NCBI GenBank assembly: GCA_028715785.1
Contig: JAQURC010000006.1
Span: 21,630-85,629 of the forward strand
Length of the DNA stretch: 64,000 bases
DNA from: Candidatus Omnitrophota bacterium
GTDB taxonomy: Bacteria > Omnitrophota > Gorgyraeia > Gygaellales > Profunditerraquicolaceae
Direction of reading: 5' to 3'
Below, piece after piece: positions 940 to 20,731 of this stretch. The translations under genes and the position numbers were made by a program. Each line of letters starts with the position of its first letter. Position 1 is the first letter of the stretch. Below the pieces are notes generated by a model that saw only the letters and a list, made by a program, of their open reading frames with translations, was not told the DNA's origin and did no database searches.

Positions 940-975
940 GTAGGGGGCGTTTAAACGTCCCCTACAATGTGGATA
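940..975. repeat. Family A hairpin (GTTTAAAC apex), copy 1
   Basis: GTAGGGGGCGTTTAAACGTCCCCTAC (940-965) followed by AATGTGGATAAC. Copy 2 shares the 3' flank TGTGGATAA. Confidence 0.8.
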
Positions 976-996
976 ACTAATAGCTCCGGGAAGACA

Positions 997-7497: not shown

Positions 7498-7615
7498 TTT
7501 AGCCGATAAAAAACTTGATTTGTTGGCTAAAATATGCTAAATTTTTATATTAACGTCTTTTATAATCTATTCCTATAGGGTAGATCTCCCACTAAAAGCG
7601 GAAGGAGTTATTAAG

Positions 7616-8914
7616 ATGTGGTTTAAGAACATACTTCTGGGTATTTCTATATTATTTTCAGCATTAGGCTGTTCGGGCCAAAAAGTTGATTCCAAACCCA
7701 CCATAACTATCTGGCACTGGATGACCGACCGCGACGCAACCTTCCAGGATCTGGCAAAAAAATATGAAACTTTAACCGGCGTAAAAGTAAATTTCGAGCT
7801 TTATGCCCCTTCGGACGCTTATTCACAGAAGATCCGCGCCGCAGCCCAGGGCATAAACCTTCCGGATGTTTTTGGCATTTTGGGAGAAAAGAGGGATTTT
7901 GCTTCTTTTATCAAAGCCGGCCACATTTTAGATCTTACCTCCTATATGGAAGCCAATAATAACGGTTGGAAGAACAGTTTTTTCCCCAAGGCGCTGGCGG
8001 TAAATGAATTTGCCGCAGGCAATAGTTATGGGATAAATCCCGGCACCTACGGTGTCCCTGTCGATATTATGACCATCCAGATGGTCTATAACAAAAAACT
8101 TTTTACGCAGTTGGGATTAAATCCCAGCCGGCCTCCGAAGACCCTCCAGGAGTTTTTAGATATCGGTCCGAAAATCCAGGCCGCCGGAATGCAGGGGCTG
8201 GTTTCCGGATGGGGCGAGGTTTGGATGATTGATTGCCTGGCCAATGACTATGCCTTCAATATTATGGGTAAAGATAAGGTAATGGCGACGATCAGGGGCC
8301 AGGTCCCTTATACCGATCCGGATTGGGTCAAGGTATTTTCTATCTTTAAGCAGATGCAGGACTCCGGTGTTTTAGCCAAAGGCCTGGTAACCATGATCAA
8401 TAAATCCGCCGAGCAGCTTTTTGCCAATGAAAAAGCTGTTTTTGCTTTTAACGGTTCCTGGTGCGTGAATGTTTATAAGGGGATGAATCCTAATCTTGAA
8501 TACGGGGCAATACTTCCGCCGCAGGCCTCTGACAAATATCCGATGTCTATCTGGGGCGGGGCAGGTTCTTCTTTTATGGTCAACGCGCGTTCTAAAAATA
8601 AGGAAGAAGCAATTAAGTTTTTAGTCTGGCTGACCGGCCAGGACCAGCAGGCATATTTATCCAGGGCCACCAATAACCTGCCTGCCAACAAAAACTGTTT
8701 GGCTAAGATCCCCGAGGTGCTTGCCCAATTTGCCCGCGGCATGGAGTATGCCACCCATCCGAACGTCTGGGGGGTTTCGGAGTTTTCTTTGGTCATCGAG
8801 GCTTTTGACCGCGGTATCCAATCCATCATTATCGGAGAGAAAACCCCCGAGCAGGTTGCTGATGAAGTTCAGAAAGTAAAGGAAAGGGAATTAAATAAGA
8901 GAAGAGCCAAATAG
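7616..8914 (+). CDS. Sugar ABC transporter substrate-binding lipoprotein (family 1 SBP)
   Basis: Lipobox LFSALGCSG. Sequence has general family-1 extracellular solute-binding character. GGAAGGAG RBS. Followed by two permease genes. Confidence 0.85.
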   Translation: MWFKNILLGISILFSALGCSGQKVDSKPTITIWHWMTDRDATFQDLAKKYETLTGVKVNFELYAPSDAYSQKIRAAAQGINLPDVFGILGEKRDFASFIKAGHILDLTSYMEANNNGWKNSFFPKALAVNEFAAGNSYGINPGTYGVPVDIMTIQMVYNKKLFTQLGLNPSRPPKTLQEFLDIGPKIQAAGMQGLVSGWGEVWMIDCLANDYAFNIMGKDKVMATIRGQVPYTDPDWVKVFSIFKQMQDSGVLAKGLVTMINKSAEQLFANEKAVFAFNGSWCVNVYKGMNPNLEYGAILPPQASDKYPMSIWGGAGSSFMVNARSKNKEEAIKFLVWLTGQDQQAYLSRATNNLPANKNCLAKIPEVLAQFARGMEYATHPNVWGVSEFSLVIEAFDRGIQSIIIGEKTPEQVADEVQKVKERELNKRRAK

Positions 8915-8917
8915 TCA

Positions 8918-9811
8918 ATGACACACAAATCAATGAAGCTGAAAGATACATTAGAGAATTACACCTTTGTCCTGCCGGCAGTAACCATATTTTCCATATT
9001 CTATATTATTCCTTTTATCTGGGTTTTTCAGTTGGGCCTCTTTGATTGGGACGGGATCTCTTTTAGCAAGACGTTTGTGGGCTTGGCAAATTTCAAAGAG
9101 ATCTTCCTGCAGGATAAAAACTGGTGGCAATCGATGTGGAACGCCGGTTACATCACTTTGATCGCCCTTACTTTTCAGAATATCCTGGCTTTTATGCTCG
9201 CCTGGGCCTGCGACCGCGAAATGAGGATGAAAAATTTTTACCGGGTGATTTTTTTTATCCCTCCGGTCCTCTCGGAAGTGGTCGTGGGCATGGCCTGGCG
9301 TTTTATCATCAATGACATCGACGGGGCGAATGTCATCAATCGCACGCTTACACAAATGGGTTTTCCGCATTTAGTGCATAATTGGTTATCCGACCCCAAC
9401 ACCGCACTTACTACCGTTGCGATTGTGCATTGCTGGAAGGGTTTTGGCTGGGGGTTCCTGATTTTTCTGGCAGGTCTGCAGACCATACCGCGCGAACTTT
9501 ACGAAGCCGCCCGGGTTGACGGGGCAAGCGCCTGGCAGTCATTTAAAAAAGTAACCATACCTTTGATGATCCCGGTGATGGTGCTGGTGGCCATCCTTAC
9601 GGTATTGGGCACGATGCAGGTGTTTGTATTGATTGTCAGCCTGGTGGGAGGCGAATTTGCCGGGCATACTTCGGTTCCGGTTTTAAGGATCCTGGCTTCT
9701 ATGCGCGGCTCATCGCGTTTTGGTTATGCCTGCGCCCAGGGGATTACTTTCGGTCTGGTATTGATTATAATATCTTTTATCCAATACCGTTTTTCCAAAA
9801 AAGGGCAATAG
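8918..9811 (+). CDS. Sugar ABC transporter permease (MalF/UgpA-like)
   Basis: Six-TM profile with EAA loop region ELYEAARVDGASAWQSFKKVTIPL. Confidence 0.85.
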   Translation: MTHKSMKLKDTLENYTFVLPAVTIFSIFYIIPFIWVFQLGLFDWDGISFSKTFVGLANFKEIFLQDKNWWQSMWNAGYITLIALTFQNILAFMLAWACDREMRMKNFYRVIFFIPPVLSEVVVGMAWRFIINDIDGANVINRTLTQMGFPHLVHNWLSDPNTALTTVAIVHCWKGFGWGFLIFLAGLQTIPRELYEAARVDGASAWQSFKKVTIPLMIPVMVLVAILTVLGTMQVFVLIVSLVGGEFAGHTSVPVLRILASMRGSSRFGYACAQGITFGLVLIIISFIQYRFSKKGQ

Positions 9812-9817
9812 AGTTAT

Positions 9818-9860
9818 CAATGTAGCGGAGGTTTAAACCTCCGCTACATTGTGGATAATT
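9818..9860. repeat. Family A hairpin, copy 2 (between the two permease genes)
   Basis: CAATGTAGCGGAGGTTTAAACCTCCGCTACATTG is a perfect 34-nt palindrome, followed by TGGATAAT. Confidence 0.85.
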
Positions 9861-9886
9861 TTCAAGAAAGGCCAGTGAGATAAAGA

Positions 9887-10735
9887 ATGATGAACTCATT
9901 TTATTATAAGGGTAAAAAGATCGTGGTAAATACGCTGATCCATCTTTTCCTGATTAGCGTGGCAATAACCTGTCTTTATCCGCTGCTTTGGATGATCGTT
10001 TCAAGCCTTAAAACCCAGGATATGATCTTTAAGGATATTTCTTTGATCCCGCATCAGTTCCGCCTGGAGAATTATGTCCTGGCCTGGAAAGAAGGGGGAT
10101 TCGGCGGAAACTTTTTTAACAGTATTATTTATACCGTTTCGGTAGTCTTCGGGATAGTGATTATTTCTTCCATGGCCGCCTATGCTTTCAGCCGCTTACG
10201 TTTTGCGGGAAGTAAATTTTTGTTCATCATGTTTATGGCGGCAATGATGATCCCCATCCCGGGAAGTTTTGTCGCCCTCTATGTTTTATTAAATAAACTG
10301 CATTTAAGGAATACTCCCATCGGTTATATTCTGTGCATGATTAACGTGGGGCTCTCCACCAGCATATTTTTGCTGAAAACTTTTTTTGATAAGATGCCCA
10401 AGGAGCTGGAAGATGCCGCGCGCATCGACGGCTGCTCGAAAATCGGGATTTGGTGGCATGTTGCCCTGCCGCTGGCCAAGCCGGTGCTGGCGGTGGTGAT
10501 TGTTTTTAACGCTTTAGCCGTATGGAACGAATATATCCTGGCGCTGATTATTTTTGATAACCGCAAGTTCATGCCGCTTCAGGTGGCCTTGCAGTCTTTT
10601 CAGGGCGAGTTCGTCACCAATTATCCGCTGTTAATGGCCGGATTGACGATTACGGCCCTGCCGATTATTTTAGTATATCTTTTTATGCAGAAGTATATTA
10701 TCAAGGGCGTTACCCAGGGAGCGGTAGTAGGATGA
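9887..10735 (+). CDS. Sugar ABC transporter permease (MalG/UgpE-like)
   Basis: EAA loop ELEDAARIDGCSKIGIWWHVALPLAKP. Multi-TM. Confidence 0.85.
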   Translation: MMNSFYYKGKKIVVNTLIHLFLISVAITCLYPLLWMIVSSLKTQDMIFKDISLIPHQFRLENYVLAWKEGGFGGNFFNSIIYTVSVVFGIVIISSMAAYAFSRLRFAGSKFLFIMFMAAMMIPIPGSFVALYVLLNKLHLRNTPIGYILCMINVGLSTSIFLLKTFFDKMPKELEDAARIDGCSKIGIWWHVALPLAKPVLAVVIVFNALAVWNEYILALIIFDNRKFMPLQVALQSFQGEFVTNYPLLMAGLTITALPIILVYLFMQKYIIKGVTQGAVVG

Positions 10736-13119
10736 GTTGTATAAATTTAAAATTTAATGTGTCATTGCGAGCCCGCAGGGCGAAGCAATCTGGGCTTGGA
10801 TTGCTTCGTCGCCTTCGGCTCCTCGCAATGACACTGCCAGTGTTTTTCATTTGCCAATGTACTGACGTGCTGGCTTCCCAGCCTGTTCCTCCCGCTGCTA
10901 CCGCCAGGCCTTCCTCAAGCGAGTTGACCACTAAGGCCTGGATTGCCCACGGCAAAAGGGATATCGAGGCGACGAATAAATACACTCAGGAATGTATCGA
11001 TCTATACAGTTTCCAAGCGGATAAAGAGCAGGCAGCTTTAGCCGCATTGCCTAAGAATAAAAAAGAGATCGAGGCGGTGCAGGTATTAAACGATGTGGCT
11101 ACCTGTTATTTTATTCAGGCTGAGGGCCTGATGCGCCAGCAAAAAATCGATGAGGCCAAGAAAATATTTAAATTGATCATCGATAAATATTCTTACGGAC
11201 AAGCCTGGGACCCGCGCGGCTGGTTCTGGTCGATAAAACTGGCTGCCGAACAAACGATCAAAAAAATCGAAACCGGCTCGATAGAAGTGGAGCAGAAGAA
11301 AAAAGTCAGCCAGCTTGCGACAAAATTGACTTTATTCGATCCGGGTAAAGAAGAAATTGTCGATTACGCAAAATACGGCGAGTTTCAAAACATCGGGACC
11401 AAAGATTATCAGTATGTTGTCGGCGACCAGAAGGGTTTAATCGAGGCAGCCGGAGAAGGCGTCTACCCCAATAACAGCGCAGTCAGGAAAGACCCGATTT
11501 TTAAGCAGGTGATTAAAGACAAGCGCCTGGAGGGGGATGTCTGGGATTTTCTTTATTCCCCGGATCTAGAGGCGGCATTTGTCAAATGGACAACCTCCAG
11601 CGAGCCGCAAGGGGTGAGATTATATGGCACCGGTTTGATTTTGGAGAAGGCCGGTTTAATCACCCAGGCGATCAAATGCTATTATTCGATTGTCGTGCAT
11701 TTCCCCGGCAGCTACGGCTGGACTTACTGGCATACGCCTTGGTATGTGGGCCAGGCCTCGATTGCCAAAATAAATTTTCTTCTCAGGCGCAACCCGCAGT
11801 TAGGTTATAAACTGGAAGGCGCGCAGATCGATATCATCAATGGTTTTGATAATGATATTTCCAATGATGTTGCGGTGGCTAATCCCGGCAAATTCGTGAA
11901 AGTTGATATGGGCCAGGAAGCGGCCAAGGCCAGGCCTACGGCTGAATCCGTGGGGATTAAAAAGAAGGTAGGACGCGGCAAGGTGCGTTTAGTGCAGTAT
12001 AATAATAATGACTGGCAGCTTCTGGTCGAGGACAAGCCTTATATTATTAAAGCGGTTACTTACGCTCCCACTAAGGTTGGCCAGTCTCCGGATGACGGAA
12101 CGCTTAAGAACTGGATGGAGGAGGATTTGAATAAAAACGGCAAAATCGACGGCCCCTATGATGCCTTCGTGGATAAGAACAGGAACAACATCCAGGATGC
12201 CGATGAGCCGTCGGTCGGTGATTTTAAATTGATGCAGGATATGGGTATTAATACCATACGCCTCTACCATCATCCTTTAAAGGTAAACAAAGAATTAATG
12301 CGCGATATGTATAATGCTTATGGGATAGGCGTAATTATGGGGGATTTTTTAGGTAAATATGCCATCGGCTCCGGGGCTGCCTGGAATCCCGGGACCGACT
12401 ATAACAATGAAGCGCAAAAGAAGAAAATGATCGAGTCGGTCAAAGGGATGGTCAATGAATTTAAAGACGAGCCCTACATTTTATTCTGGCTCCTGGGCAA
12501 TGAGAATGTTTACGGTTATGCCTGCAACGCCAATGAATACCCGGAAGCTTATTTTAAATTCGCCAACGAGGTGGCCAGGATAATTAAGTCTATCGACCCA
12601 AATCATCCGGTAGCCATATGCAGCGGCGATATTTTATTTCTGGATAAATTCGGCAAGAGCGCCCCGGATATAGATATCTTCGGTACCAATGCCTACCGCG
12701 GGGATTATGGTTTCGGCGCTTTTTGGAGGCAGGTCAAGGAACAGGCAGGCAAGCCGGCTTTTATCACCGAGTTTGGCTGTCCGGCATACGCTGAAGGGAA
12801 AAGTGTCGATGAAGCCGAGGAGCTGCAGGCGCAATATCATTTGGGTTCCTGGGAGGACATTCAGGATAATATGGCGTTTGGCGGCACAGCAGGTAACGCA
12901 ATAGGCGCAGTGATCTTTGAATGGCTGGATGAATGGTGGAAGGCTTATGAGCCGGGGATCCATGACACCAAGGGTTTGTGGACCGGGCCGTTTCCCGACG
13001 GATATATGCATGAGGAGTGGCTGGGTGTCAGCGGCCAGGGGGATGGAAAACTAAGCCCGTTTTTGCGGCAACTGCGCAAAGCGTATTATATGTATCAGAA
13101 AAAGTGGAAACAGAATTAA
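10732..13119 (+). CDS. Clan GH-A (TIM-barrel) glycoside hydrolase, secreted; family unassigned
   Basis: GINTIRLYHH, WLLGNENVY (acid/base NE), AFITEFGCPAY (nucleophile E), FEWLDEWWK. ATGA overlap with the permease stop. Codons 1-32 lie inside a repeat element, so Met at 10828 is an alternative start. Confidence 0.6.
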   Translation: MSCINLKFNVSLRARRAKQSGLGLLRRLRLLAMTLPVFFICQCTDVLASQPVPPAATARPSSSELTTKAWIAHGKRDIEATNKYTQECIDLYSFQADKEQAALAALPKNKKEIEAVQVLNDVATCYFIQAEGLMRQQKIDEAKKIFKLIIDKYSYGQAWDPRGWFWSIKLAAEQTIKKIETGSIEVEQKKKVSQLATKLTLFDPGKEEIVDYAKYGEFQNIGTKDYQYVVGDQKGLIEAAGEGVYPNNSAVRKDPIFKQVIKDKRLEGDVWDFLYSPDLEAAFVKWTTSSEPQGVRLYGTGLILEKAGLITQAIKCYYSIVVHFPGSYGWTYWHTPWYVGQASIAKINFLLRRNPQLGYKLEGAQIDIINGFDNDISNDVAVANPGKFVKVDMGQEAAKARPTAESVGIKKKVGRGKVRLVQYNNNDWQLLVEDKPYIIKAVTYAPTKVGQSPDDGTLKNWMEEDLNKNGKIDGPYDAFVDKNRNNIQDADEPSVGDFKLMQDMGINTIRLYHHPLKVNKELMRDMYNAYGIGVIMGDFLGKYAIGSGAAWNPGTDYNNEAQKKKMIESVKGMVNEFKDEPYILFWLLGNENVYGYACNANEYPEAYFKFANEVARIIKSIDPNHPVAICSGDILFLDKFGKSAPDIDIFGTNAYRGDYGFGAFWRQVKEQAGKPAFITEFGCPAYAEGKSVDEAEELQAQYHLGSWEDIQDNMAFGGTAGNAIGAVIFEWLDEWWKAYEPGIHDTKGLWTGPFPDGYMHEEWLGVSGQGDGKLSPFLRQLRKAYYMYQKKWKQN
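10759..10834. repeat. Family B ~75-bp nested palindrome (GTGTCATTGCGAG ... CTCGCAATGACAC), copy 1
   Basis: Outer arms GTGTCATTGCGAG/CTCGCAATGACAC and inner arms CGAAGCAATC/GATTGCTTCG. Overlaps the 5' end of the GH ORF. Confidence 0.85.
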
Positions 13120-13133
13120 AACGGAGGTGTAAG

Positions 13134-14282
13134 ATGAGAAAGTTGTCAGCAGTATTACTGGCTTTAAGTCTTTTGGTCCCGGCAATGGCCGCTTCCGAAG
13201 AAAAAGCCGCAGGCCCCAAGGAGTTTGTGGTCTACTTGGATAAAAACGCCAAGGAGAATCATTATATTCCTAGCGGCTGGATGGGTGATTACGGCGATAT
13301 CAAAATGAATGACCAGTCAGCGGATAATCCGCATGGCGGGACAACCAGCATTCAATTCATTTATAGCGCCAAGAAATCACAGAATCAGGGTTGGGCCGGA
13401 GTTTACTGGCAGAATCCTTCGAACAACTGGGGAAACAAAAAAGGCGGTTTTGACTTGACCGGCATGACCAAACTTACTTTTTGGGCCCGCGGGGCAAAAG
13501 GCGGTGAAGTGATCCAGAAGGTGATGGTCGGCGGGATCAAGGGGACATATCCTGATACCGCGATGGTGGAGATGGGGCCCATTGAATTGACCAATGCCTG
13601 GAAACAGTATACGGTTAATTTAGTAGGTAAGGATCTTTCTTATGTTAACGGCGCTTTTGGCTGGACTTCAACCGCCGATTTAAATCCGGAGGGAGCCGCG
13701 TTTTATATCGATGATATAAAATTTGAGGCGGATGCGGCTTTGAAACCCGAGGGTAAAAAACAACAGGCAATGCCGTTCTATATTTATGCCGACCGCTCAA
13801 CCGCAGCCAACCATTTTATACCTAGCGGCTGGATGGGCGATTACGGCGATATAAAATATGACGGGGCTTCCAAAGAAGACCCGTATTTAGGCGATACTTG
13901 CGTTAAAATAATCTACAACGGAAAAGCCGCCCAAGGCGCGCGCTGGGCGGGGATTTTCTGGCAGAATCCGGCTAATAACTGGGGCAGCGTTGATGCGGGT
14001 TTTGATCTTTCCAAAGCCGCCAAGCTTACTTTTTGGGCCCGCGGGGCAAAAGGCGGAGAACGCATCGAAGAGTTCAAGGTCGGCGGGATTATGGGGGAGT
14101 TTTCGGATTCAGACAGCGCGACCATCGGCCCGGTCCTCTTGAATAAAGAGTGGACCCAATATACTATTGATTTAAAAGGCAAAGATTTGTCGTATGTTAT
14201 CGGCGGTTTTTGCTGGTCGGCAAATGTGGACAACAACCCGGAAGGCGCTACATTCTATCTGGATGAGATCAAGTTTGAATAA
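13134..14282 (+). CDS. Secreted protein with two tandem CBM-like beta-sandwich modules
   Basis: GGAGGTG RBS and signal peptide MRKLSAVLLALSLLVPAMA. Two ~170-aa modules share H(Y/F)IPSGWMGDYGDIK, WAG..WQNP.NNWG, KLTFWARGAKGGE and NPEGA.FY.D.IKFE. A 32-nt DNA stretch is identical at ~13474 and ~14024. Confidence 0.5.
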   Translation: MRKLSAVLLALSLLVPAMAASEEKAAGPKEFVVYLDKNAKENHYIPSGWMGDYGDIKMNDQSADNPHGGTTSIQFIYSAKKSQNQGWAGVYWQNPSNNWGNKKGGFDLTGMTKLTFWARGAKGGEVIQKVMVGGIKGTYPDTAMVEMGPIELTNAWKQYTVNLVGKDLSYVNGAFGWTSTADLNPEGAAFYIDDIKFEADAALKPEGKKQQAMPFYIYADRSTAANHFIPSGWMGDYGDIKYDGASKEDPYLGDTCVKIIYNGKAAQGARWAGIFWQNPANNWGSVDAGFDLSKAAKLTFWARGAKGGERIEEFKVGGIMGEFSDSDSATIGPVLLNKEWTQYTIDLKGKDLSYVIGGFCWSANVDNNPEGATFYLDEIKFE

Positions 14283-15540
14283 TAAAAATAGTAATTACAA
14301 AGCTACAGGTTACAGGCATTTCTTGCTTGCAGCCTGTAGCTTTTTGTTTGTATTTATTTTGTCCGCCTGCCAGCCCAAGCAAGGCGCCTATATCCAAAAG
14401 TTAAAAAATCAACACTACGTTCTTATCGTAAACGCCCGGCCGTATATCGTCAAAGGAGTTTGTTATAACCCCATCCCGATAGGTTCAAATCAGGAGTATG
14501 ACTGGTGGGGTGATCCGAATAAGCCCTGGATTACCGACGGCAAACTGATGAAGGATATGGGGGTCAATACTATCCGTCTTTATCAAGCGCATGAGCATCC
14601 CGAAGAAGTAAGGCAGGTAATCCGGGATTTATATAATTTATACGGCATCCGGACACTCCTGGGCGACTGGCTGGGGTTCTGGGAATACCCCTGTCCTTTT
14701 TACGGCGACCAGAAATTCCAGGATAAAGTAAAGGCTCAGGTGTTGGAGATGGTCAAGCTTTATAAAGATGAGCCCGGGATCCTCGGATGGATTTTAGGAA
14801 ATGAGAATAATTATTCCTGCCTGGGGCATGTCAATCCCTGGTCAAGCCCCGAGGTTGACCAGGAAACAAACCCCCAGAAACAAAAAGCGCTGCGCGCAAA
14901 AATTTATTATTCTTTTGTAAATGATATCTCCAAGGAAATACATAAAATCGACTCCAGGCATCCGGTAGGGTTAGGCAACGGGGAGTTGGTGGGGTTGGAT
15001 TCTGCCGACAAATTTTGCCGGGATGTTGATTTTGTGGCCTGTATAATTTACCGCGGCAAGACCTTCGGCAATCTTTTTAGATCCCTCAAGATGACATTCG
15101 ATAAGCCGGTATTATTGTCCGAATTCGGCGCGGATTGCCACGATGCCTACTTAAAAAAAGAAGACCAGAATATGCAGGCGTTCTTCCTGCAATCCCAGTG
15201 GCAGCAGATCTACGAAAACTTAGCCAATAATAAAACAGGGGCGGGCAATTGCATAGGCGGGACGGTTTTTGAATGGACGGATGAATGGTGGAAGCACAGT
15301 TCGGATAATCCGGAAAGCTGGAAGGTCCATGACACCGAAGGCGGCTGGTCCAACGGCAGTTATTATTTTGACATAAAAGTCCCGGGCGGCATGAATATGA
15401 ACGAAGAATGGTTCGGTATATGCGCTTTATCGGAAAACCTTGAAAATGGTCTAAATAAACGTATCCCGCGCAAGGCCTATTATGTTATCAGGGAATTCTG
15501 GAAGCATCCGGTAATTAAAAAAGCGCATAAGAAAAAATAA
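14263..15540 (+). CDS. Clan GH-A glycoside hydrolase lipoprotein, paralogue of 10732..13119
   Basis: VNTIRLYQAH, WILGNENNY, VLLSEFGADCH, FEWTDEWWK; lipobox FILSAC. The start is uncertain: track 14194 overlaps the previous gene, and Met at 14263 or the in-frame TTG before LAAC are both possible. Confidence 0.6.
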   Translation: MRSSLNNKNSNYKATGYRHFLLAACSFLFVFILSACQPKQGAYIQKLKNQHYVLIVNARPYIVKGVCYNPIPIGSNQEYDWWGDPNKPWITDGKLMKDMGVNTIRLYQAHEHPEEVRQVIRDLYNLYGIRTLLGDWLGFWEYPCPFYGDQKFQDKVKAQVLEMVKLYKDEPGILGWILGNENNYSCLGHVNPWSSPEVDQETNPQKQKALRAKIYYSFVNDISKEIHKIDSRHPVGLGNGELVGLDSADKFCRDVDFVACIIYRGKTFGNLFRSLKMTFDKPVLLSEFGADCHDAYLKKEDQNMQAFFLQSQWQQIYENLANNKTGAGNCIGGTVFEWTDEWWKHSSDNPESWKVHDTEGGWSNGSYYFDIKVPGGMNMNEEWFGICALSENLENGLNKRIPRKAYYVIREFWKHPVIKKAHKKK

Positions 15541-15551
15541 TATAGTTAGGC

Positions 15552-15698
15552 GTGTCATTGCCGGGAGCGCAGCGGTTGCGAGGCGAAGCCGAAGCAAACC
15601 AGCAGCCCCTCGCAACTGGATTCCTTCGCTTCGCTCGGAACAGGCTGCGCAATCCAAAGCGAGATTGCTTCGGGCACTTCGTGCCCTCGCAATGACAC
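15552..15698. repeat. Family B composite (~147 bp) with a nested variant unit
   Basis: Same outer termini (GTGTCATTGCC ... CTCGCAATGACAC). The interior contains a second unit with arms GGTTGCGAGG/CCTCGCAAC plus the GAGATTGCTTCG inner arm. Confidence 0.75.
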
Positions 15699-15713
15699 TA
15701 AAGGGGAGGCAAT

Positions 15714-17267
15714 ATGTCAGTATTTTTGAGATGCACTCTGATAATTTTTTTAAGCATATTTTCATGGGCACCTTCGGTTTATTGCGCTCAAACATCCGGT
15801 TGTTCCGGCATCGAAGAATCCAAATCGAAATATCTGGCGGCCAACCGGTATAATGAATTTGTCGAGTTTCTTGATAATTTTAAGGATAAGGATAAAGTTG
15901 ATCCGCTTTGCTTGAATTATTATAAGGCGCAAACCCGTTACCTGCAGCTCGAATACCTGGAAGAAAAACAATCCTGGGATGATTATTTTGCCAACGGCAA
16001 CAATTATCGCCAGCAATTAGAGCAGAATGCCCAAAAGGTTGTTGACCAGGCCGATGCCGCCAATCCCTTAAGGCCGAAAGCAAGGCTTTTGCTTTGGCAA
16101 TTCCATTATGGCCAGCAGGATGCTTTTGTCCAGGCCTCATTAGACGATCTGGTTAGCGACCTTGGCGCTTACGCTAAAATTAAAAGCGACCCGGAACTGA
16201 TCAAAAATGTTGCCGATGCTCTCTTGGCCGTCGAAGAAAAAACAAAGGCCCGCCAAATTTATAAGCTTTATGTAGATCAGCTTGTCGCAGGAACGATGAC
16301 CGATGCAAAGCTCAAAAGCCAGGCCGCCGGATTTTACAAGGAAGGCAACCTGGAATTAGCGCAGGCTGTTTATAATATTTATATAGAAAGGATTTCAAAA
16401 ACCCCGGCTCCGGAGAAACTCATCCAGGAGTTGTTTGAAATTGCCAGCCTTTTTGTTTATAAGCAGACAGGCTTCTATGATATGGCTTACGCGGAGGATA
16501 TTTACGCCAAGATAGAAAAATTGGGCGGTAAGGATGCTTTTAATCAGGCAGCAATCTACTTGCGCGCCTTTAACTTAGAGAAACTCAAGGATTATAAAGG
16601 AGCGCAGAAGCTTTATTTGCAATTAATCCAGCTTTATCCGGATACCAAGTATTTTGATGAGGCCGTTTATAAAATTGCCATGATCGAGGCGTATGCTTTG
16701 GCAAATATTAATGAAGCAAGAAAATATTTTGAAATACTTGCGGCTAAGACCGTATTCAGCCCGCAGGTTATTTCCAGCCTCTATCAGTTAGGGCTATTGG
16801 CGCAATGGGAAGGCAACTTAGTTAAAGCCCAGGAATATTATGGCCTGTTGTTAAAAAATTCCGCGGATAACCATGTTTCCACCGCGGCCCTTGTTAAGGA
16901 CAGGCTCAAGGAGATAGAAGAGAATAAGCAGCTCGATTACAATTTAAAGACTTTCCTCGACCTGTCTTTAAAAAATGAGAATACACTGGTTGAGCCGGGC
17001 AAGGCAGAATTAAGATCTTCCGGATACCTGCTCGATAAAAATCAGAAAGCCGTAATTTCCTCTTTAGTCGCTATGCCGCAGAGCGGCTGTAATCAAGTTG
17101 ACCTGCAGTATCTCTGGAGCGGCGACTTGGGCGGGGAAAACCCTGCGGTAACCGATGGAAGCTTTCAATGCGCCTATTCCGATGCCGGGACAAAAACGAT
17201 AAATATAGTGATAATTTCGCCCGCAGGAGCCATCGACCGCTTCTTTATAATGGTGGATGTCTATTAA
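15714..17267 (+). CDS. Secreted helical-repeat (TPR-like) protein with C-terminal PKD/Ig-like domain
   Basis: AAAGGGGAGG RBS. Signal peptide ending SVYCAQ. Repeated helical hairpins. C-terminus QYLWSGDLGG...FQCAYSDAGTKTINIVIISPAG. Confidence 0.4.
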   Translation: MSVFLRCTLIIFLSIFSWAPSVYCAQTSGCSGIEESKSKYLAANRYNEFVEFLDNFKDKDKVDPLCLNYYKAQTRYLQLEYLEEKQSWDDYFANGNNYRQQLEQNAQKVVDQADAANPLRPKARLLLWQFHYGQQDAFVQASLDDLVSDLGAYAKIKSDPELIKNVADALLAVEEKTKARQIYKLYVDQLVAGTMTDAKLKSQAAGFYKEGNLELAQAVYNIYIERISKTPAPEKLIQELFEIASLFVYKQTGFYDMAYAEDIYAKIEKLGGKDAFNQAAIYLRAFNLEKLKDYKGAQKLYLQLIQLYPDTKYFDEAVYKIAMIEAYALANINEARKYFEILAAKTVFSPQVISSLYQLGLLAQWEGNLVKAQEYYGLLLKNSADNHVSTAALVKDRLKEIEENKQLDYNLKTFLDLSLKNENTLVEPGKAELRSSGYLLDKNQKAVISSLVAMPQSGCNQVDLQYLWSGDLGGENPAVTDGSFQCAYSDAGTKTINIVIISPAGAIDRFFIMVDVY

Positions 17268-17288
17268 ATCCAGCCTCGCCGAAAACTA

Positions 17289-17342
17289 GGGGACGTTTCT
17301 ATTTTTTCATAGCCTCGGCTTCAAAAAAATAGAAACGTTCCC
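17289..17342. repeat. Family D long hairpin, copy 1 (after the TPR/PKD gene; probable terminator)
   Basis: GGGGACGTTTCTATTTTTT-catagcctcggcttc-AAAAAAATAGAAACGTTCCC, followed by TTTTTC. Confidence 0.8.
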
Positions 17343-17436
17343 TTTTTCTTGAAACTACTTGACTTGAGGCTTCTTTAGTAGTAAAGTAAAAATAAATATT
17401 TCCATTTATTTTTATAAAGCGAGGCAATTCCCTCCC

Positions 17437-18669
17437 ATGCATCTATTAGATCTACAAAAAGAAGATTTTAGCGAAAAAGAAAAACGCAATATCGAGATAC
17501 TGGGCATACTTAGGAAGCAGGGGCCGATAAGCCGCCCGGATATTTCCCAGGAGATGGGGATAAATATAGTGAGCGTTTCCAACTATATCGACGATTTCAT
17601 CAAGAGTAACCTGGTTTATGAAAAGGAGCTTGATGTGTCCGAAGGGGGCCGCAGGCCGGTGTTGCTGGATTTAAACCCGCGGGCCGGATACGCCATCGGG
17701 GTGGGGTTAAACCTGATGAACATGGTCGGGCTTCTTGTGGATTTAAAGGGCAACATTATTACCAAAACTCAAATTGTCCGGCCGCAGGCTTCGGTTAAGG
17801 AAGTCTCTGAGTGCCTTTTAGAAATTGTGCGCGAAATCTTAAGGCGCTCCAAAGGATATGTTGAAAATATAAAAGGTATCGGCGTGGGCGTTGCCGGATT
17901 GATCAATAAAAAAGACGGCTCTATCCGCTGGCCGCAGAAAATGGACCATTATTATACTTATGCCTCGGTAGACCTTCCTTTAAAGGGGTTGATCGAGAAA
18001 GAATTCAACCTGCCGACACTGATCGAGAATGACGCCAGCAGCGCCTGCTTTGGCGAACATTGGCTGGATTTAGGAGGGGCCTATAAAGATGTCATTTATA
18101 TGTTCTCCGGGGTCGGCTGCGGGATCATGATCAACGGGGAGCTTTATCGCGGCTGGCAGGGATATGCCGGCGAGGTTTCCGTTTATAATTATAAGGAGCA
18201 GGACCTTTTTAACTGCCCAACCGGATCCCCCTGTTTTGTCAAACGCTGGGATATGGATTTGGGGATTGTCGATGAGATAAAAGCAATTTTGCTTAAAGAT
18301 AAAGAAAAAGCAGCGGAGTTTTTGCGGGCCAGCTCAACCAGCATAGAGAGCATAGATTTAAAAAGCATATTCAGCGCCTCCCGCTTAAAGAATGAAGTGG
18401 CCTTGACGGTACTAGAGCGGGCGGCCAAAAGATTAGGGATAAAAATCGCTTACCTGGTTAACCTGCTTAACCCGCAGGTGGTAATCATCGGCGGAGGCTT
18501 CGAAGAGTCAGGAGAAGAGTTTTTAAATAAAGTCAGGAGCACGGTTATGGATTGGGCTTTCCGCGAAGTAACCAGTGATTTGAAAATCGTTTATTCTCAA
18601 TTAAGAGAGAATGCCGTGGCCATGGGTGCGGCAAGTTTGGTTTTAGAGAGAGTATTCGCTCAATTATAA
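17437..18669 (+). CDS. ROK-family transcriptional regulator
   Basis: N-terminal wHTH (ILRKQGPISRPDISQEMGINIVSVSNYI) plus a ROK sugar-kinase fold (GVGVAGLINKKDG, ENDASSACFGE). The Cys/His zinc motif is degenerate. Confidence 0.75.
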   Translation: MHLLDLQKEDFSEKEKRNIEILGILRKQGPISRPDISQEMGINIVSVSNYIDDFIKSNLVYEKELDVSEGGRRPVLLDLNPRAGYAIGVGLNLMNMVGLLVDLKGNIITKTQIVRPQASVKEVSECLLEIVREILRRSKGYVENIKGIGVGVAGLINKKDGSIRWPQKMDHYYTYASVDLPLKGLIEKEFNLPTLIENDASSACFGEHWLDLGGAYKDVIYMFSGVGCGIMINGELYRGWQGYAGEVSVYNYKEQDLFNCPTGSPCFVKRWDMDLGIVDEIKAILLKDKEKAAEFLRASSTSIESIDLKSIFSASRLKNEVALTVLERAAKRLGIKIAYLVNLLNPQVVIIGGGFEESGEEFLNKVRSTVMDWAFREVTSDLKIVYSQLRENAVAMGAASLVLERVFAQL

Positions 18670-18687
18670 GCCATAACAGGGGGGATT

Positions 18688-19560
18688 ATGGAACAAAAAA
18701 CAAAATTTATTATTATTGGCTTGATAGTTTTTTCCGTAGTATGCCTTTTTTTCCTTTTTCAGGCGACTAACCAGCAGCAGACGCTGCTTAGGGAAAACAA
18801 TGATTTAAAGAGCGAGAATGCCACCCTGTTGAGTAAAGTTAACCGGCTTGAAAATGACTTAAGAGGAAACCAGAGTAAAATAGATTCTCTTAGAGGCGAG
18901 AGGGATAAGTGGGCCGAGGAGTTGAATGATTTACAGAAGAAATACGAATCAGTAGCCAGGGTCAGGGACGAACTGATTGAGAAGTTAAAGAAGCAAAGCC
19001 AGCGTCAGCAGGAGATGTTCGTTGCCCAAGACGCGCTGAAAACGCTTAAGGCTGAGAATGAAGAGTTTACCCGGCAATTAAAGAGTTTAAGCAGCCGTAA
19101 AATTATTTTGGATCAAAAAATCCAGAGCCTTCAGGAAACTAACTCCGCGCTGGAGAAGCGCTTGAATGAAATGAATACGATGCTTGTCAACAGGATGCCT
19201 CAGGCGGGTTCTCTTGGAAGCGAATCGGATATGATTAAGAGCGGCGTCCCCGCGGCGACTTTAGAGAAAAAAAGAGAGTCTGTGGAGCTGCCGGCAATAA
19301 TAGTGCGGTCATCGTTTTCTCCGGAAAAGCCAGTGGTGCCGGCATTTGGCGGCAAGATCTTAGCGGTAAATACGGATAATAACTTTGTAATTATAGATTT
19401 GGGGTCTGCATCAGGAGTGAAGGTTGGAGATATGTTTAATGTTTACCGCGCGCAAAAATCAATTGGTTCTATCGCGGTAATCCAGATAAGAGACAGTATT
19501 TCCGCCTGCGACATAAAGAGGACAAGTACGCCGTTAAAAATCGGCGATAATATCAAATAG
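18688..19560 (+). CDS. Membrane-anchored coiled-coil protein, unknown function
   Basis: N-terminal TM FIIIGLIVFSVVCLFFLF, ~170 aa of heptad-like coiled coil, and a small C-terminal beta domain (VIIDLGSASGVKVGDMFNVYR). Confidence 0.4.
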   Translation: MEQKTKFIIIGLIVFSVVCLFFLFQATNQQQTLLRENNDLKSENATLLSKVNRLENDLRGNQSKIDSLRGERDKWAEELNDLQKKYESVARVRDELIEKLKKQSQRQQEMFVAQDALKTLKAENEEFTRQLKSLSSRKIILDQKIQSLQETNSALEKRLNEMNTMLVNRMPQAGSLGSESDMIKSGVPAATLEKKRESVELPAIIVRSSFSPEKPVVPAFGGKILAVNTDNNFVIIDLGSASGVKVGDMFNVYRAQKSIGSIAVIQIRDSISACDIKRTSTPLKIGDNIK

Positions 19561-19563
19561 CCA

Positions 19564-20595
19564 ATGGCACGTATTAAAAAAGCAGTATCTGCCTCCAGAA
19601 ATAATTCTATTGTTGATGTCGCGCGGGCCAGCGGAGTATCCATTACTACCGTTTCCCGGGTAATCAATAAGATCGGCTCGGTCAAAGAATCCAACCGTAT
19701 AAAAGTAATGAATGCGGTCCGTGAATTGAAATTCCAGCCGTCTGTCTTTGCGCAGCGCCTGGCAACCGGCAAAAGCAATGTTGTGGCTTTGGTGATCCCG
19801 CGCTATGAAGGGGTATTTTATTCATTCTATGCCCTGGAGCTTATCCGCGGGGTAGGCACGATGTGCGAAGCTCTCAAGCTGGATTTACTTTTGCATTTAA
19901 CCGATGCGCGCTCTCCATTATCTCTGCGCGGAGTAGGCGGGATAATCTTTTCCGATATTATCGGTAACCGCGCCCAGTTGGAGGAATGTTTGGCAAAAGG
20001 CATACCCAGCGTCGTGATTAATTATTATGTGGATGATTTGGACGTTTCATGTATCGCCATCGATAACGCAGGCGGTGCCGAGAGGGCGGTTAATTATTTG
20101 ATCGAGCTGGGGCATCGAAAAATAGCGCATATTACCGGGGACGTAATGACCCAGGCGGCAGCCAAGCGCCTGGAGGGTTATAAGCACGCACTAACGAAAA
20201 ATAATATCAAGGTCAGGGAGGATTATATATTCCACACCGATTATTCCCGCGGGGCGGCAAGGAGCGCGGCCGAGAAGTTGATCAAGGCGGCGGATCCGGC
20301 AACCGCTGTATTTGTCGCCTCGGATGCGATGGCCCTGGAAGTAATGGCTGTGGCCCGTGAGTCAGGCAAGAATATTCCGGATGATTTATCGATTGTCGGT
20401 TTTGATGATAATCCTTCGGGGCTTTATGGCCCGGTCGGGCTTACTACCGTGCGCCAGCCGTTGATCCGGATGGCCGAAGAAAGCGTTAAAGAATTGAACC
20501 GGCTGATTGTCTTAAATAAAAATGCGCCAAAAAAGATCCTGCTTCCGGCGGAATTAGTGATCCGGGAGTCCTGCAAGCCTTTTTCCGGCGGATAA
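19564..20595 (+). CDS. LacI/GalR-family transcriptional regulator
   Basis: HTH SIVDVARASGVSITTVSRVIN plus a periplasmic-binding-protein-like sugar-binding core. Confidence 0.85.
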   Translation: MARIKKAVSASRNNSIVDVARASGVSITTVSRVINKIGSVKESNRIKVMNAVRELKFQPSVFAQRLATGKSNVVALVIPRYEGVFYSFYALELIRGVGTMCEALKLDLLLHLTDARSPLSLRGVGGIIFSDIIGNRAQLEECLAKGIPSVVINYYVDDLDVSCIAIDNAGGAERAVNYLIELGHRKIAHITGDVMTQAAAKRLEGYKHALTKNNIKVREDYIFHTDYSRGAARSAAEKLIKAADPATAVFVASDAMALEVMAVARESGKNIPDDLSIVGFDDNPSGLYGPVGLTTVRQPLIRMAEESVKELNRLIVLNKNAPKKILLPAELVIRESCKPFSGG

Positions 20596-20603
20596 GCTTT
20601 TCC

Positions 20604-20648
20604 TACAATCTATTGTATATTGCATAAATATCTATACAATATGTTGTA
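20604..20648 (+). promoter_or_regulatory. Two NrdR-box-like palindromes upstream of nrdJ
   Basis: TACAATCTATTGTA (20604-20617) and TACAATATGTTGTA (20635-20648). Centres are 31 bp apart. Confidence 0.55.
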
Positions 20649-20656
20649 ATTTTTTA

Positions 20657-20685
20657 TTGACAACCGTTGCCTCCTTTGTTATATT
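20657..20685 (+). promoter_or_regulatory. Sigma-70-type promoter for nrdJ
   Basis: TTGACA (20657-20662), 17-nt spacer, TATATT (20680-20685). Confidence 0.55.
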
Positions 20686-20731
20686 GCTTAAGTAATTTGT
20701 CGTTAACCTTCCTAAATATTCGAGGTGAAAA

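What the first reader, a model, noticed from the sequence alone, without database searches (positions are those of the whole stretch)
7616..20595. Carbohydrate locus built around two paralogous GH-A hydrolases with a GH72-like motif order and a tandem duplicated binding-module protein
**Hydrolase motifs.** Both hydrolases share:
- (I/V)NTIR(L)Y.
- W(L/I)LGNEN.
- a DI(F/V)..N.YRG-type segment.
- (I/L)(T/S)EFG(C/A).
- FEW(L/T)DEWWK.

From memory, this order and spacing resemble fungal GH72 beta-1,3-glucanosyltransferases (GxNTIRVY / GNEV / FFSEYGCN) at least as much as GH2 or GH5. I cannot assign the family without profile searches.

**Neighbouring genes.**
- Between the two hydrolases lies a secreted protein made of two ~55%-identical modules (an internal duplication, with identical 32-nt DNA blocks at ~13474 and ~14024).
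- After them lies a TPR/PKD-like protein.
- Upstream lies a sugar ABC importer with no ATPase gene in the locus.
- Downstream lie ROK and LacI regulators.

The substrate is unknown.
Basis: partly seen in the sequence, partly recalled or inferred. Interest (0 to 1): 0.5.

Follow-up and report, generated by a model that had tools for sequence, protein, structure and literature searches.

The report
Omnitrophota GH158-like glucan-harvesting operon
This is a sugar-harvesting operon conserved in gene order in all 80 related Omnitrophota genomes examined, usually next to their giant genes; its two enzymes are distant relatives of GH158 beta-1,3-glucanases rather than GH72 or GH2, and its duplicated protein is a pair of glucan-binding-type modules.

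Summary
Only the PKD-like label has no support.

- **Organism and locus.** The window comes from a Candidatus Omnitrophota genome assembled from a metagenome. The gene order PilZ, binding protein, two permeases, GH#1, tandem protein, GH#2, TPR protein, ROK, coiled-coil protein, LacI, RNR is kept in all 80 species-representative genomes examined, wherever the contig is long enough. In 34 of 40 of them it follows a very long open reading frame. The literature has already noted this locus as the carbohydrate-import and glycosyl-hydrolase block downstream of Omnitrophota giant genes.
- **Enzymes.** Both hydrolases align over the whole barrel with GH158 endo-beta-1,3-glucanases (hhalign 99.1%, E about 1e-18, 28-29% identity). 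A control against another clan GH-A family, GH17, gives 18-30%. The GH72 signal is consistent but weak; the GH2 signal covers only the barrel. Both enzymes lack the Ig-like domain of GH158.
- **Tandem protein.** It is two CBM30/CBM11-like beta-sandwiches. In other organisms the same module is fused to a genuine GH158 enzyme and, in 15 of 49 large proteins, to GH17 domains.
- **Best reading.** Exported enzymes and a binding protein cut a beta-glucan, probably beta-1,3-linked, and an ABC importer takes up the oligosaccharides. The substrate is inferred, not shown.

The parts
967..6513 (+). Upstream large ORF (1848 aa, no Pfam family). It sits where relatives carry a giant gene. Context only, not part of the operon.
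   Evidence: No Pfam hit. In 34 of 40 related loci a reading frame still open at the locus start (318 to about 2,100 aa of it visible) ends just before PilZ. The two called genes are 34,628 and 37,663 aa. The only similarity found is 52% identity over 518 aa to the C-terminal part of the upstream ORF in L029.
6802..7497 (+). PilZ-domain protein (putative cyclic-di-GMP receptor), the first conserved gene of the syntenic block.
   Evidence: Pfam PilZ, E 4.6e-20. Found at the same position in 53 of 82 loci, wherever the contig reaches that far. Noted downstream of giant genes in bioRxiv 10.1101/2023.11.21.568195.
7616..8914 (+). Sugar ABC solute-binding protein, family 1 oligosaccharide type. A lipobox-like signal (SALGC) is read by eye.
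   Evidence: Pfam SBP_bac_8 5.2e-39 and SBP_bac_1 6.7e-34. Best solved relative is the chitin-oligosaccharide binder NagB1, 7ehp, E 5.1e-26. NCBIfam NgcE 1.2e-19, far below its cut-off.
8918..9811 (+). ABC permease 1
   Evidence: Pfam BPD_transp_1, E 6.7e-16.
9887..10735 (+). ABC permease 2. Its stop codon overlaps the GH#1 start by 4 nt.
   Evidence: Pfam BPD_transp_1, E 1.3e-17. The same 4-nt overlap is seen in L001.
10732..13119 (+). GH#1 (795 aa): signal peptide, then a conserved N-terminal region of about 400 aa with a TPR match, then a GH158-like (beta/alpha)8 barrel (aa 418-795). Predicted acid/base residue E591 (12502-12504) and nucleophile E680 (12769-12771).
   Evidence: Pfam GH2_C 5.9e-12, GH72 7.6e-6, TPR_6. 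PDB GH158 3.5e-12 and profile 7.9e-13. hhalign against a GH158 mini-profile: 99.1%, E 6.4e-19, 238 columns, 29% identity. E591 and E680 are invariant in 16 orthologues.
13134..14282 (+). Secreted, non-catalytic protein made of two CBM30/CBM11-like beta-sandwich modules (about 13224-13727 and 13776-14279).
14263..15540 (+). GH#2 (425 aa from the ATG at 14263; the ORF tool gives 14194): N-terminal hydrophobic anchor or lipobox (ILSAC), then a GH158-like barrel. Predicted acid/base residue E181 (14803-14805) and nucleophile E287 (15121-15123).
15714..17267 (+). Secreted TPR-containing protein, the least conserved member of the block. Its C-terminal roughly 100 aa are unassigned.
   Evidence: Pfam TPR_6 3e-5 and NCBIfam YbgF-like 7.9e-7, below cut-offs. 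No PKD or other Pfam hit on aa 363-517. Syntenic in 56 loci at 36-72% identity.
17288..17343 (.). 27-nt inverted repeat 21 nt after the TPR gene. It may be a terminator or an operator, marking a transcript boundary before the regulator genes.
   Evidence: Arms 17288-17314 and 17317-17343, 85% complementary. Its function is inferred only.
17437..18669 (+). ROK-family protein of repressor length with an N-terminal winged helix (NagC/Mlc type).
   Evidence: Pfam ROK 1.4e-41 and HTH_24 1.3e-3. NCBIfam NagC 1.3e-40, below its cut-off.
18688..19560 (+). Coiled-coil protein whose N-terminal hydrophobic stretch looks like a membrane anchor (read by eye). It is conserved in position; its role is unknown.
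   Evidence: Only weak coiled-coil matches. Syntenic in 45 loci at 29-57% identity.
19564..20595 (+). LacI-family transcriptional regulator.
   Evidence: Pfam LacI 5.1e-15 and Peripla_BP_3 3e-34.

Best explanation
This is the conserved oligosaccharide-harvesting operon that Velamenicoccus-type Omnitrophota carry immediately downstream of their giant gene and PilZ gene.

**Proposed mechanism.**
1. Two exported, retaining clan GH-A glycosidases cleave a beta-glucan outside the cytoplasmic membrane. GH#1 has a large TPR-containing N-terminal extension. GH#2 is a minimal lipoprotein or membrane-anchored barrel.
2. A secreted protein made of two CBM30/CBM11-like modules binds the same polymer.
3. 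The released oligosaccharides are captured by the lipoprotein binding protein and imported through the two permeases. The ATPase is encoded elsewhere in the genome.
4. The ROK and LacI proteins control expression in response to sugar.

**Enzyme family.** The enzymes form a distinct lineage that is specifically related to GH158 endo-beta-1,3-glucanases. They are not GH72 and not GH2. They lack the Ig-like domain of GH158 and have a longer C-terminal region after strand 8.

**Substrate.** Most likely a beta-1,3-linked or mixed-linkage glucan. I give the glucan reading about 0.5, within an overall 0.6 for the operon model.

**Shown.** Homology, conserved catalytic glutamates, folds, domain fusions, synteny and linkage to giant genes.

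**Inferred.** The substrate, the cellular location of the cleavage, the targets of the regulators, and hydrolysis rather than transglycosylation.
For: **Organism and conservation.**
- The top 120 listed homologues of each of GH#1, GH#2 and the tandem protein are 67-100% identical; nearly all that carry a name come from Omnitrophota assemblies.
- 388 stretches in species-representative genomes encode a GH#1 relative.
- Gene order is identical in every locus long enough to show it.
- A very long open frame ends just upstream of PilZ in 34 of 40 loci. Called genes there are 34,628 and 37,663 aa.
- The literature describes PilZ, solute-binding proteins, transporters and glycosyl hydrolases downstream of giant genes.

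**Enzyme family.**
- GH158 is the best solved relative by sequence, by profile and by Foldseek.
- hhalign gives 99.1%, E 1.3e-18 and 6.4e-19, over 232 and 238 columns at 28-29% identity, from strand 1 to strand 8.
- The control against a GH17-like profile gives only 18-30%.
- The catalytic glutamates align with Glu143 and Glu229 of GH158(Pro) and are invariant in orthologues.

**Binding protein.**
- The model shows two beta-sandwiches.
- The module family has 2,815 representatives.
- Among 49 large members, 15 carry a GH17 domain. One of these matches the beta-1,3-glucanosyltransferase RmBgt17A at E 8.7e-31.
- One member, P0397, is a full GH158 enzyme (E 1.2e-99) followed by two modules.
- Three members carry the same hydrolase family as this locus.

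**Import.**
- The binding protein and the two permeases are typical sugar ABC components.
- A subset of relatives adds a sugar:cation-symporter-like gene between permease 2 and GH#1.
Against: - No activity has been measured for any member of this lineage.
- The binding protein's nearest solved relative binds chitin oligosaccharides, and the ROK protein scores best against NagC.
- GH158 subsite residues are only partly kept. Trp236 (+1 subsite) aligns with Ala687 in GH#1 and Asp294 in GH#2. Tyr291 aligns with Leu in GH#1.
- The Ig-like domain of GH158 is absent.
- CBM30 and CBM11 bind beta-1,4 and mixed-linkage glucans, not pure beta-1,3-glucan (from my own knowledge of these families).
- No cytoplasmic beta-glucosidase or phosphorylase gene lies in the locus.
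- If the enzymes stay in the periplasm, how a polymer would reach them is unexplained.
Confidence: 0.6

Rival explanations
1. The architecture and logic are the same (exported enzymes, binding protein, importer), but the substrate is not a beta-1,3-glucan. It could be a GlcNAc- or GlcN-containing oligomer or polymer from a prey or host cell wall, such as a chitin-like glycan, or a beta-mannan.
For: - The binding protein's best solved relative is the chitin-oligosaccharide binder NagB1, E 5.1e-26.
- NCBIfam NgcE scores 1.2e-19 and the ROK protein scores 1.3e-40 against NagC.
- Pfam's GH5_mannosidase model is listed for many GH#2 orthologues.
- The published hypothesis is degradation of prey cell walls.
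Against: - All of these matches fall far below the family cut-offs.
- The sequence-profile link to GH158 is specific.
- The binding module's most frequent catalytic partners are GH17 and, in one case, a genuine GH158. From my own knowledge, both families act on beta-1,3-glucan.
- No nagA- or nagB-type genes lie in the locus.
Confidence: 0.2
2. The two enzymes are transglycosylases, like GH72 and many GH17 enzymes. They would remodel the cell's own surface or periplasmic glucan, perhaps the coat associated with the giant protein, under cyclic-di-GMP/PilZ control, rather than feeding the cell.
For: - Consistent weak matches to the Pfam GH72 glucanosyltransferase model.
- The binding module is mostly fused to GH17 domains whose best solved relative is a beta-1,3-glucanosyltransferase.
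- Tight linkage to PilZ and to giant genes, which are reported to carry glycosyltransferase and GGDEF domains.
- Very high sequence conservation, which is unusual for catabolic accessory genes.
- TPR proteins commonly accompany exopolysaccharide machinery (from my own knowledge).
Against: - The enzymes are embedded between a binding-protein-dependent importer and sugar-responsive repressors, which is the typical layout of a catabolic operon.
- A subset of relatives adds a second sugar-symporter-like gene.
- The nearest family, GH158, consists of hydrolases.
- No synthase or glycosyltransferase gene lies in the operon.
Confidence: 0.12
3. They are ordinary GH2 exo-glycosidases (beta-galactosidase or beta-glucuronidase), as public annotation states.
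For: - The Pfam GH2 TIM-barrel model is the best Pfam hit for GH#1 (5.9e-12; 16 of 16 orthologues).
- Sources name the proteins 'GH2 TIM barrel domain-containing' or 'beta-glucuronidase'.
- A 2026 preprint calls the hydrolases that flank giant genes GH2.
Against: - No match to any GH2 N-terminal domain was found in either protein.
- The GH#2 barrel begins about 45 residues after its start, leaving no room for such domains.
- GH2 structures score worse than GH158 by sequence, by profile and by Foldseek.
- The GH2 matches cover only part of the barrel.
Confidence: 0.05

Closest known systems
GH158 endo-beta-1,3-glucanases (BuGH158, PDB 6pal; GH158(Pro), PDB 9oro)
   Same: - Clan GH-A (beta/alpha)8 barrel.
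- The alignment runs from strand 1 to strand 8 at 28-29% identity.
- The acid/base and nucleophile glutamates sit in equivalent motifs (LGNE and TEFG).
- An aromatic residue sits at the Trp77 position (Tyr512 in GH#1, Tyr107 in GH#2), and Phe278 is conserved.
- As in Bacteroides, the enzymes lie in a glycan-utilisation locus next to non-catalytic glycan-binding proteins (PMC7157763).
   Different: - No C-terminal Ig-like domain.
- Trp236 is not conserved, and Tyr291 is not conserved in GH#1.
- A longer region follows strand 8 (FEW.DEWWK ... EEW[LF]G).
- GH#1 adds an N-terminal region of about 400 aa with a TPR match and a 43-aa insert after strand 1.
- The importer is an ABC system rather than SusC/SusD.
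- The phylum is different.
- Activity is untested.
The block of PilZ, binding-protein-dependent transporter and glycosyl hydrolases downstream of Omnitrophota giant genes (West-Roberts et al., bioRxiv 10.1101/2023.11.21.568195, Fig. 7C)
   Same: It appears to be this very locus type. The gene classes, their order relative to the giant gene, and the phylum all match.
   Different: - That paper and a 2026 preprint describe the enzymes only as glycosyl hydrolases or GH2. Neither mentions GH158, or a binding-module protein at this locus.
- In this window the upstream gene is only 1848 aa, not giant.
GH72 fungal beta-1,3-glucanosyltransferases (Gas and Gel proteins)
   Same: - Clan GH-A barrel.
- Similar motif order (NTIR.Y, GNE, SE[FY]GC).
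- Consistent weak Pfam matches.
   Different: - Scores are at or below the Pfam cut-off.
- No GH72 structure appears in the PDB sequence or profile searches at E up to 1.
- GH72 proteins are eukaryotic and GPI-anchored, often with a Cys-rich CBM43 (from my own knowledge). Neither feature was looked for here.
CBM30 and CBM11 beta-glucan-binding modules
   Same: - The Pfam CBM30 or CBM11 models hit some multi-domain relatives of the module (6 and 2 of 49).
- The module is fused to glycoside hydrolases in other proteins.
   Different: - The window's own protein does not reach either Pfam model or any PDB sequence.
- Here the modules form a free-standing tandem protein instead of being attached to an enzyme.
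- The ligand is untested.
Sugar ABC importers that rely on a shared ATPase encoded elsewhere (MsiK or MsmK type; from my own knowledge)
   Same: One family-1 binding protein and two permeases, with no ATPase gene in the operon.
   Different: The ATPase has not been located; only 64 kb of the genome was available.

Membership tests
GH158 | Detectable sequence similarity across the whole catalytic barrel to established GH158 members | tested here: met
   hhalign gives 99.1%, E 1.3e-18 (GH#2) and 6.4e-19 (GH#1), over 232 and 238 columns at 28-29% identity. BLASTP gives 25-27% identity, E 1e-10 to 1e-16. The control against GH17 gives 18-30%. For comparison, GH158(Pro) itself is only about 30% identical to characterised members. 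The CAZy and dbCAN models themselves could not be run.
GH158 | [quoted passage not shown] | tested here: met
   They align with E591 and E680 in GH#1 and with E181 and E287 in GH#2. All four are invariant in orthologues.
GH158 | C-terminal eight-stranded Ig-like domain attached to the barrel | tested here: not met
   Both proteins end about 60-90 residues after the strand-8 motif, in a region that aligns with neither GH158 domain. hhalign covers only template positions 5-252 of 403. The GH#2 model shows no C-terminal beta-sandwich, although confidence there is low.
GH158 | Subsite residues that impose beta-1,3 specificity (Trp77, Trp236, Phe278, Glu285, Tyr291) | tested here: inconclusive
   Trp77 corresponds to Tyr, and Phe278 is conserved. 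Trp236 corresponds to Ala687 (GH#1) or Asp294 (GH#2). Tyr291 corresponds to Leu764 (GH#1) or Phe384 (GH#2), matched by motif only. Glu285 lies in a region that cannot be aligned. The model is too poor there to check geometry.
GH158 | Endo-beta-1,3-glucanase activity | not testable with these tools
   Needs enzyme assays.
GH72 | Match to the family profile (Pfam PF03198) above its curated cut-off | tested here: inconclusive
   GH#1 scores 25.9 bits, exactly the cut-off. GH#2 scores 18.8-18.9 bits, below it. Among orthologues, 16 of 16 and 13 of 18 match at E up to 0.01, best 1.3e-7.
GH72 | GH72 structures are the closest solved relatives | tested here: not met
   [not shown]
GH2 | Multi-domain architecture in which a sugar-binding domain and an Ig-like domain precede the barrel | tested here: not met
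   Only the barrel model PF02836 matches, and only partly (profile positions 39-227 of 302). No match to any GH2 N-terminal domain was found. The GH#2 barrel starts about 45 residues from its N-terminus.
CBM30 / CBM11 | Beta-sandwich fold of these modules | tested here: met
   [not shown]
CBM30 / CBM11 | Sequence match to the family profiles | tested here: not met
   The window protein has no Pfam hit and no PDB sequence or profile hit. Only some multi-domain relatives reach the models: CBM30 in 6 of 49 (best 2.3e-9) and CBM11 in 2 of 49.
Choice-of-anchor J domain (NCBIfam NF038128) | Score above the curated cut-off | tested here: met
   41.2 bits against a cut-off of 30, E 1.9e-10, with two matched stretches.
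Binding-protein-dependent sugar ABC importer | Binding protein, two permeases and an ATPase | tested here: inconclusive
   The binding protein and two permeases are present. No ATPase is present in the locus here or in relatives. The only ABC ATPase domains found in the Pfam-scanned ORFs of the window lie in phosphate-transporter-like operons. The rest of the genome was not available.
Omnitrophota block downstream of giant genes (West-Roberts et al. 2023) | PilZ, binding protein, transporter and glycosyl hydrolases directly downstream of a giant gene | tested here: inconclusive
   The gene set and order are met. 34 of 40 relatives have the long open frame upstream. In this window the upstream ORF is only 1848 aa and is preceded by a phosphoglycerate kinase fragment.

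The most novel reading that the evidence does not exclude
The operon is the feeding arm of the giant-protein apparatus of predatory or episymbiotic Omnitrophota. On this reading:
- A widely conserved, PilZ-linked module strips a beta-glucan-type polymer from the surface of the host or prey cell and imports the fragments.
- GH#1 is docked to the giant protein or the cell surface through its TPR-containing N-terminal region and its insert with two calcium-loop-like motifs.
- The GH158-like pair would then found a new CAZy family or subfamily whose specificity is tuned to a cell-envelope glycan rather than to laminarin.
Probability: 0.15. Interest if true: 0.75.

Novelty: new variant of a known kind. 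Interest (0 to 1): 0.45.

Why it matters
Omnitrophota are widespread, uncultivated, ultra-small bacteria thought to live as predators or parasites. Their giant genes are a well-known puzzle.

This operon sits next to those genes in most of the relatives examined and is 65-90% identical in protein sequence across them. It is therefore likely to be central to how these cells feed.

Public annotation labels its enzymes as GH2 or as hypothetical proteins. Assigning them instead to a GH158-like lineage, and recognising the hypothetical tandem protein as a glucan-binding-type module pair, turns a vague 'cell-wall degradation' idea into one that can be tested. Three small soluble proteins and one binding protein can be expressed and assayed on defined beta-glucans and on cell-wall preparations.

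The work would also extend the small GH158 family and add a large, unclassified family of binding modules (2,815 cluster representatives) that is associated with GH17 and GH158 enzymes.

Tried and rejected
- **GH72 membership.** The signal is real but weak at profile level. It is rejected as the closest family by the PDB sequence, profile and fold searches.
- **GH2 membership.** Rejected because no match to a GH2 N-terminal domain was found.
- **PKD-like C-terminus of the TPR protein.** No Pfam match even at E 0.01.
- **Homology between the GH#1 N-terminal region and the downstream TPR protein.** None found; best BLASTP E is 0.53.
- **An ABC ATPase for the sugar importer within the window.** Only ATPases in phosphate-transporter-like operons were found.
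- **Homology of the 1848-aa upstream ORF to the ends of giant genes in relatives.** One partial hit only, in L029.
- **The identical 32-nt block as a sign of a recent duplication.** Rejected. The 552-nt offset and about 63% DNA identity between the modules hold in most relatives, so the duplication is old. Identical runs occur at varying places.
- **Sequence link of the tandem protein to any solved structure.** None found.
- **Promoter and terminator scan.** Counts were close to the chance expectation, so it was uninformative.
- **Pfam scan of the calcium-loop-like insert in GH#1.** No match.
- **Structure models.** Both were limited by shallow alignments of close orthologues (mean pLDDT 58.6 and 66.5). 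Active-site geometry could not be examined.
- **Literature on laminarin and Omnitrophota.** Nothing specific to this locus.

Full report
**1. What is in the sequence**

All ORFs of 200 aa or more in 6800-25000 lie on the + strand. In order they are:

| Coordinates | Product |
|---|---|
| 6802-7497 | PilZ-domain protein |
| 7616-8914 | family-1 sugar-binding protein |
| 8918-9811 and 9887-10735 | two ABC permeases |
| 10732-13119 | GH#1, 795 aa |
| 13134-14282 | tandem-module protein, 382 aa |
| 14263-15540 | GH#2, 425 aa |
| 15714-17267 | TPR protein |
| 17437-18669 | ROK protein of repressor length |
| 18688-19560 | coiled-coil protein |
| 19564-20595 | LacI regulator |
| 20732-23026 | ribonucleotide reductase |

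- The two hydrolases are 33% identical, E 3e-58.
- The two modules of the tandem protein are 55% identical, E 3e-73.
- The identical 32-nt block is at 13473-13504 and 14025-14056.
- The only ABC ATPase domains found in the Pfam-scanned ORFs of the window lie in two phosphate-transporter-like operons.
- The PKD-like label has no support.

**2. Where it comes from, and how conserved it is**

The tandem protein is 100% identical to a hypothetical protein of a Candidatus Omnitrophica genome assembled from a metagenome.

The top 120 listed homologues of each of GH#1, GH#2 and the tandem protein are 67-100% identical. Nearly all of those that carry a name come from Omnitrophota assemblies.

A scan of species-representative genomes found 388 stretches that encode a GH#1 relative. 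The best 80 are all Omnitrophota, although some are labelled Planctomycetales.

In all 82 fetched loci the gene order PilZ, binding protein, permease, permease, GH#1, tandem, GH#2, TPR, ROK, coiled-coil, LacI, RNR is kept as far as each contig reaches.

In 34 of 40 loci with upstream sequence, a reading frame still open at the locus edge ends just before PilZ. Where genes were called, that gene is 34,628 or 37,663 aa.

This appears to be the block that West-Roberts et al. describe as conserved PilZ genes, solute-binding-protein-dependent carbohydrate transporters and glycosyl hydrolases downstream of Omnitrophota giant genes. A 2026 preprint calls the flanking hydrolases GH2. Neither paper mentions GH158 or a binding-module protein here.

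In this window the upstream ORF is only 1848 aa and follows a phosphoglycerate kinase fragment. It resembles only the C-terminal part of one relative's upstream ORF.

**3. What the enzymes are**

Pfam gives the GH2 barrel model as the best hit, the GH72 model exactly at its cut-off for GH#1, and only a sub-threshold GH72 hit for GH#2. Across orthologues both signals recur, and GH2_C is always the stronger.

Against solved structures, GH158 is the best match in four searches:
- single sequence, E 3.5e-12 for GH#1 and 1.7e-3 for GH#2;
- profile, E 7.9e-13 and 3.3e-6;
- Foldseek with the GH#2 model, E 7e-12;

A genuine GH158 sequence, P0397, turned up among the relatives of the tandem protein (E 1.2e-99 to 9oro). 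I used it to build a small GH158 profile.
- Both enzyme families align with that profile from strand 1 to strand 8: 99.1%, E 1.3e-18 and 6.4e-19, 28-29% identity.
- A control against a GH17-like profile, another clan GH-A family, gives 18-30%. The link to GH158 is therefore specific and not just clan-level.
- GH158(Pro) itself is only about 30% identical to characterised GH158 members.

The catalytic residues Glu143 and Glu229 of GH158(Pro) align with E591 and E680 in GH#1 and with E181 and E287 in GH#2. All four are invariant in orthologues.

The differences from GH158 are these:
- There is no Ig-like domain.
- Trp236 and, in GH#1, Tyr291 are not conserved.
- The region after strand 8 is longer.
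- GH#1 has an N-terminal extension of about 400 aa with a TPR match, and a 43-aa insert after strand 1.

I therefore read the enzymes as a distinct lineage related to GH158. They are either very divergent members or a sister family.

**4. What the tandem protein is**

It has no Pfam family. It passes the NCBIfam choice-of-anchor J model.

The model shows two beta-sandwiches. The closest solved folds are CBM30, CBM11, CBM8 and CBM4, and a laminarin-binding module is also among the hits.

An exhaustive profile search found 2,815 cluster representatives, with one to five copies of the module in proteins of up to 2,917 aa. Some are archaeal.

Among 49 large members:
- 15 carry a GH17 domain, the commonest catalytic partner. 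One of these matches the beta-1,3-glucanosyltransferase RmBgt17A at E 8.7e-31.
- 6 and 2 reach the CBM30 and CBM11 models respectively.

In addition, P0397 is a full GH158 enzyme followed by two modules. Three representatives carry the same hydrolase family as this locus. These fusions tie the module both to the neighbouring enzymes and to enzymes active on beta-1,3-glucan.

**5. How it most likely works**

The N-termini of the binding protein, both enzymes, the tandem protein and the TPR protein look like signal peptides or lipoboxes. I read these by eye.

My reading is that the enzymes and the binding protein work on a beta-glucan outside the cytoplasmic membrane. The binding protein and the permeases then import the oligosaccharides, with an ATPase encoded elsewhere. 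ROK and LacI regulate expression.

Some relatives add a sugar:cation-symporter-like gene between permease 2 and GH#1. That fits uptake.

The substrate is inferred from three independent leads:
- the specific relationship of the enzymes to GH158;
- the fusion partners of the module;
- the fold of the module.

I put a beta-1,3-linked or mixed-linkage glucan at about 0.5.

Evidence against this:
- The binding protein is closest to a chitin-oligosaccharide binder, and the ROK protein is closest to NagC.
- Some GH158 subsite residues are not kept.
- The GH#2 model is poor in its C-terminal third.

**6. Rivals**

- Another substrate with the same logic: 0.2.
- Transglycosylases that remodel the cell's own glucan coat under PilZ control: 0.12.
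- Ordinary GH2 exo-glycosidases: 0.05.

**7. Novelty and verdict**

The locus type is known, and this particular block has been noted in the literature.

What is new is the assignment of the enzymes to a GH158-like lineage in place of GH2, the recognition of the tandem protein as a pair of CBM30/CBM11-like modules from a large unclassified family, and the resulting substrate prediction.

I rate it a new variant of a known kind, of moderate interest. It makes the feeding hypothesis for giant-gene Omnitrophota testable with a few recombinant proteins.

Noticed in passing
window 114-6513: Relatives have a giant gene (more than 30,000 aa) directly upstream of PilZ. This genome has a complete 1848-aa ORF with no Pfam family, preceded by a fragment that matches only the C-terminal half of phosphoglycerate kinase. 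It could be a shortened version of the giant gene, a rearrangement or an assembly join.
   Followed up: partly
window 12124-12207 (GH#1 aa 465-492): A 43-aa insert after barrel strand 1 is absent from GH#2 and GH158. It holds two motifs that look like EF-hand or dockerin calcium loops (DLNKNGKIDGPYD and DKNRNNIQDADE). Their Asp and Asn residues are invariant in 16 orthologues. Pfam finds nothing there.
   Followed up: partly
L045 8382-9893; L067 8317-9816; L079 3750-5246; L020 6636-8140: A subset of related loci carries an extra gene of about 500 aa between permease 2 and GH#1. By eye it looks like a sugar:cation symporter of the glycoside-pentoside-hexuronide type. In L020 it is split across two frames.
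   Followed up: partly
window 13134-14282 and the orthologous genes in L001-L082: Identical DNA runs of 9-45 nt between the two modules occur in many species, but at different conserved peptides (GWMGDYGD, WQNPANNWG, KLTFWARGAKGGE). The 552-nt offset and about 63% overall DNA identity stay the same in most of them. This suggests short-tract gene conversion or strong codon constraint.
   Followed up: partly
P0445 (922 aa) and P0389 (2917 aa, Altiarchaeales archaeon): In P0445 the binding module (about aa 180-346) is inserted inside the GH158-like barrel, between the NTVRIY motif and the nucleophile motif. P0389 is an archaeal multi-domain protein that carries both the module and this hydrolase family.
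   Followed up: partly
window 17288-17343: A 27-nt inverted repeat (85% complementary, 2-nt spacer) lies 21 nt after the TPR gene stop. It may be a terminator or a regulator binding site between the operon and the ROK gene.
   Followed up: no
window 20604-20648: Two related 16-nt palindrome-like boxes (TACAATCTATTGTATA and TATACAATATGTTGTA) lie upstream of the ribonucleotide reductase gene. They resemble NrdR boxes as I recall them.
   Followed up: no
window 29428-33507 and 41221-46073: There are two separate phosphate-transporter-like operons (binding protein, two permeases, one or two ATPases, PhoU). A porin, a response regulator and a histidine kinase lie upstream of the first.
   Followed up: no
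window 35748-40094: A 1448-aa ORF with no Pfam family follows two TPR proteins.
   Followed up: no
whole window: Almost every ORF of 150 aa or more is on the + strand. GC skew is positive in every 2-kb window, so the whole 64 kb appears to lie on one leading strand.
   Followed up: no
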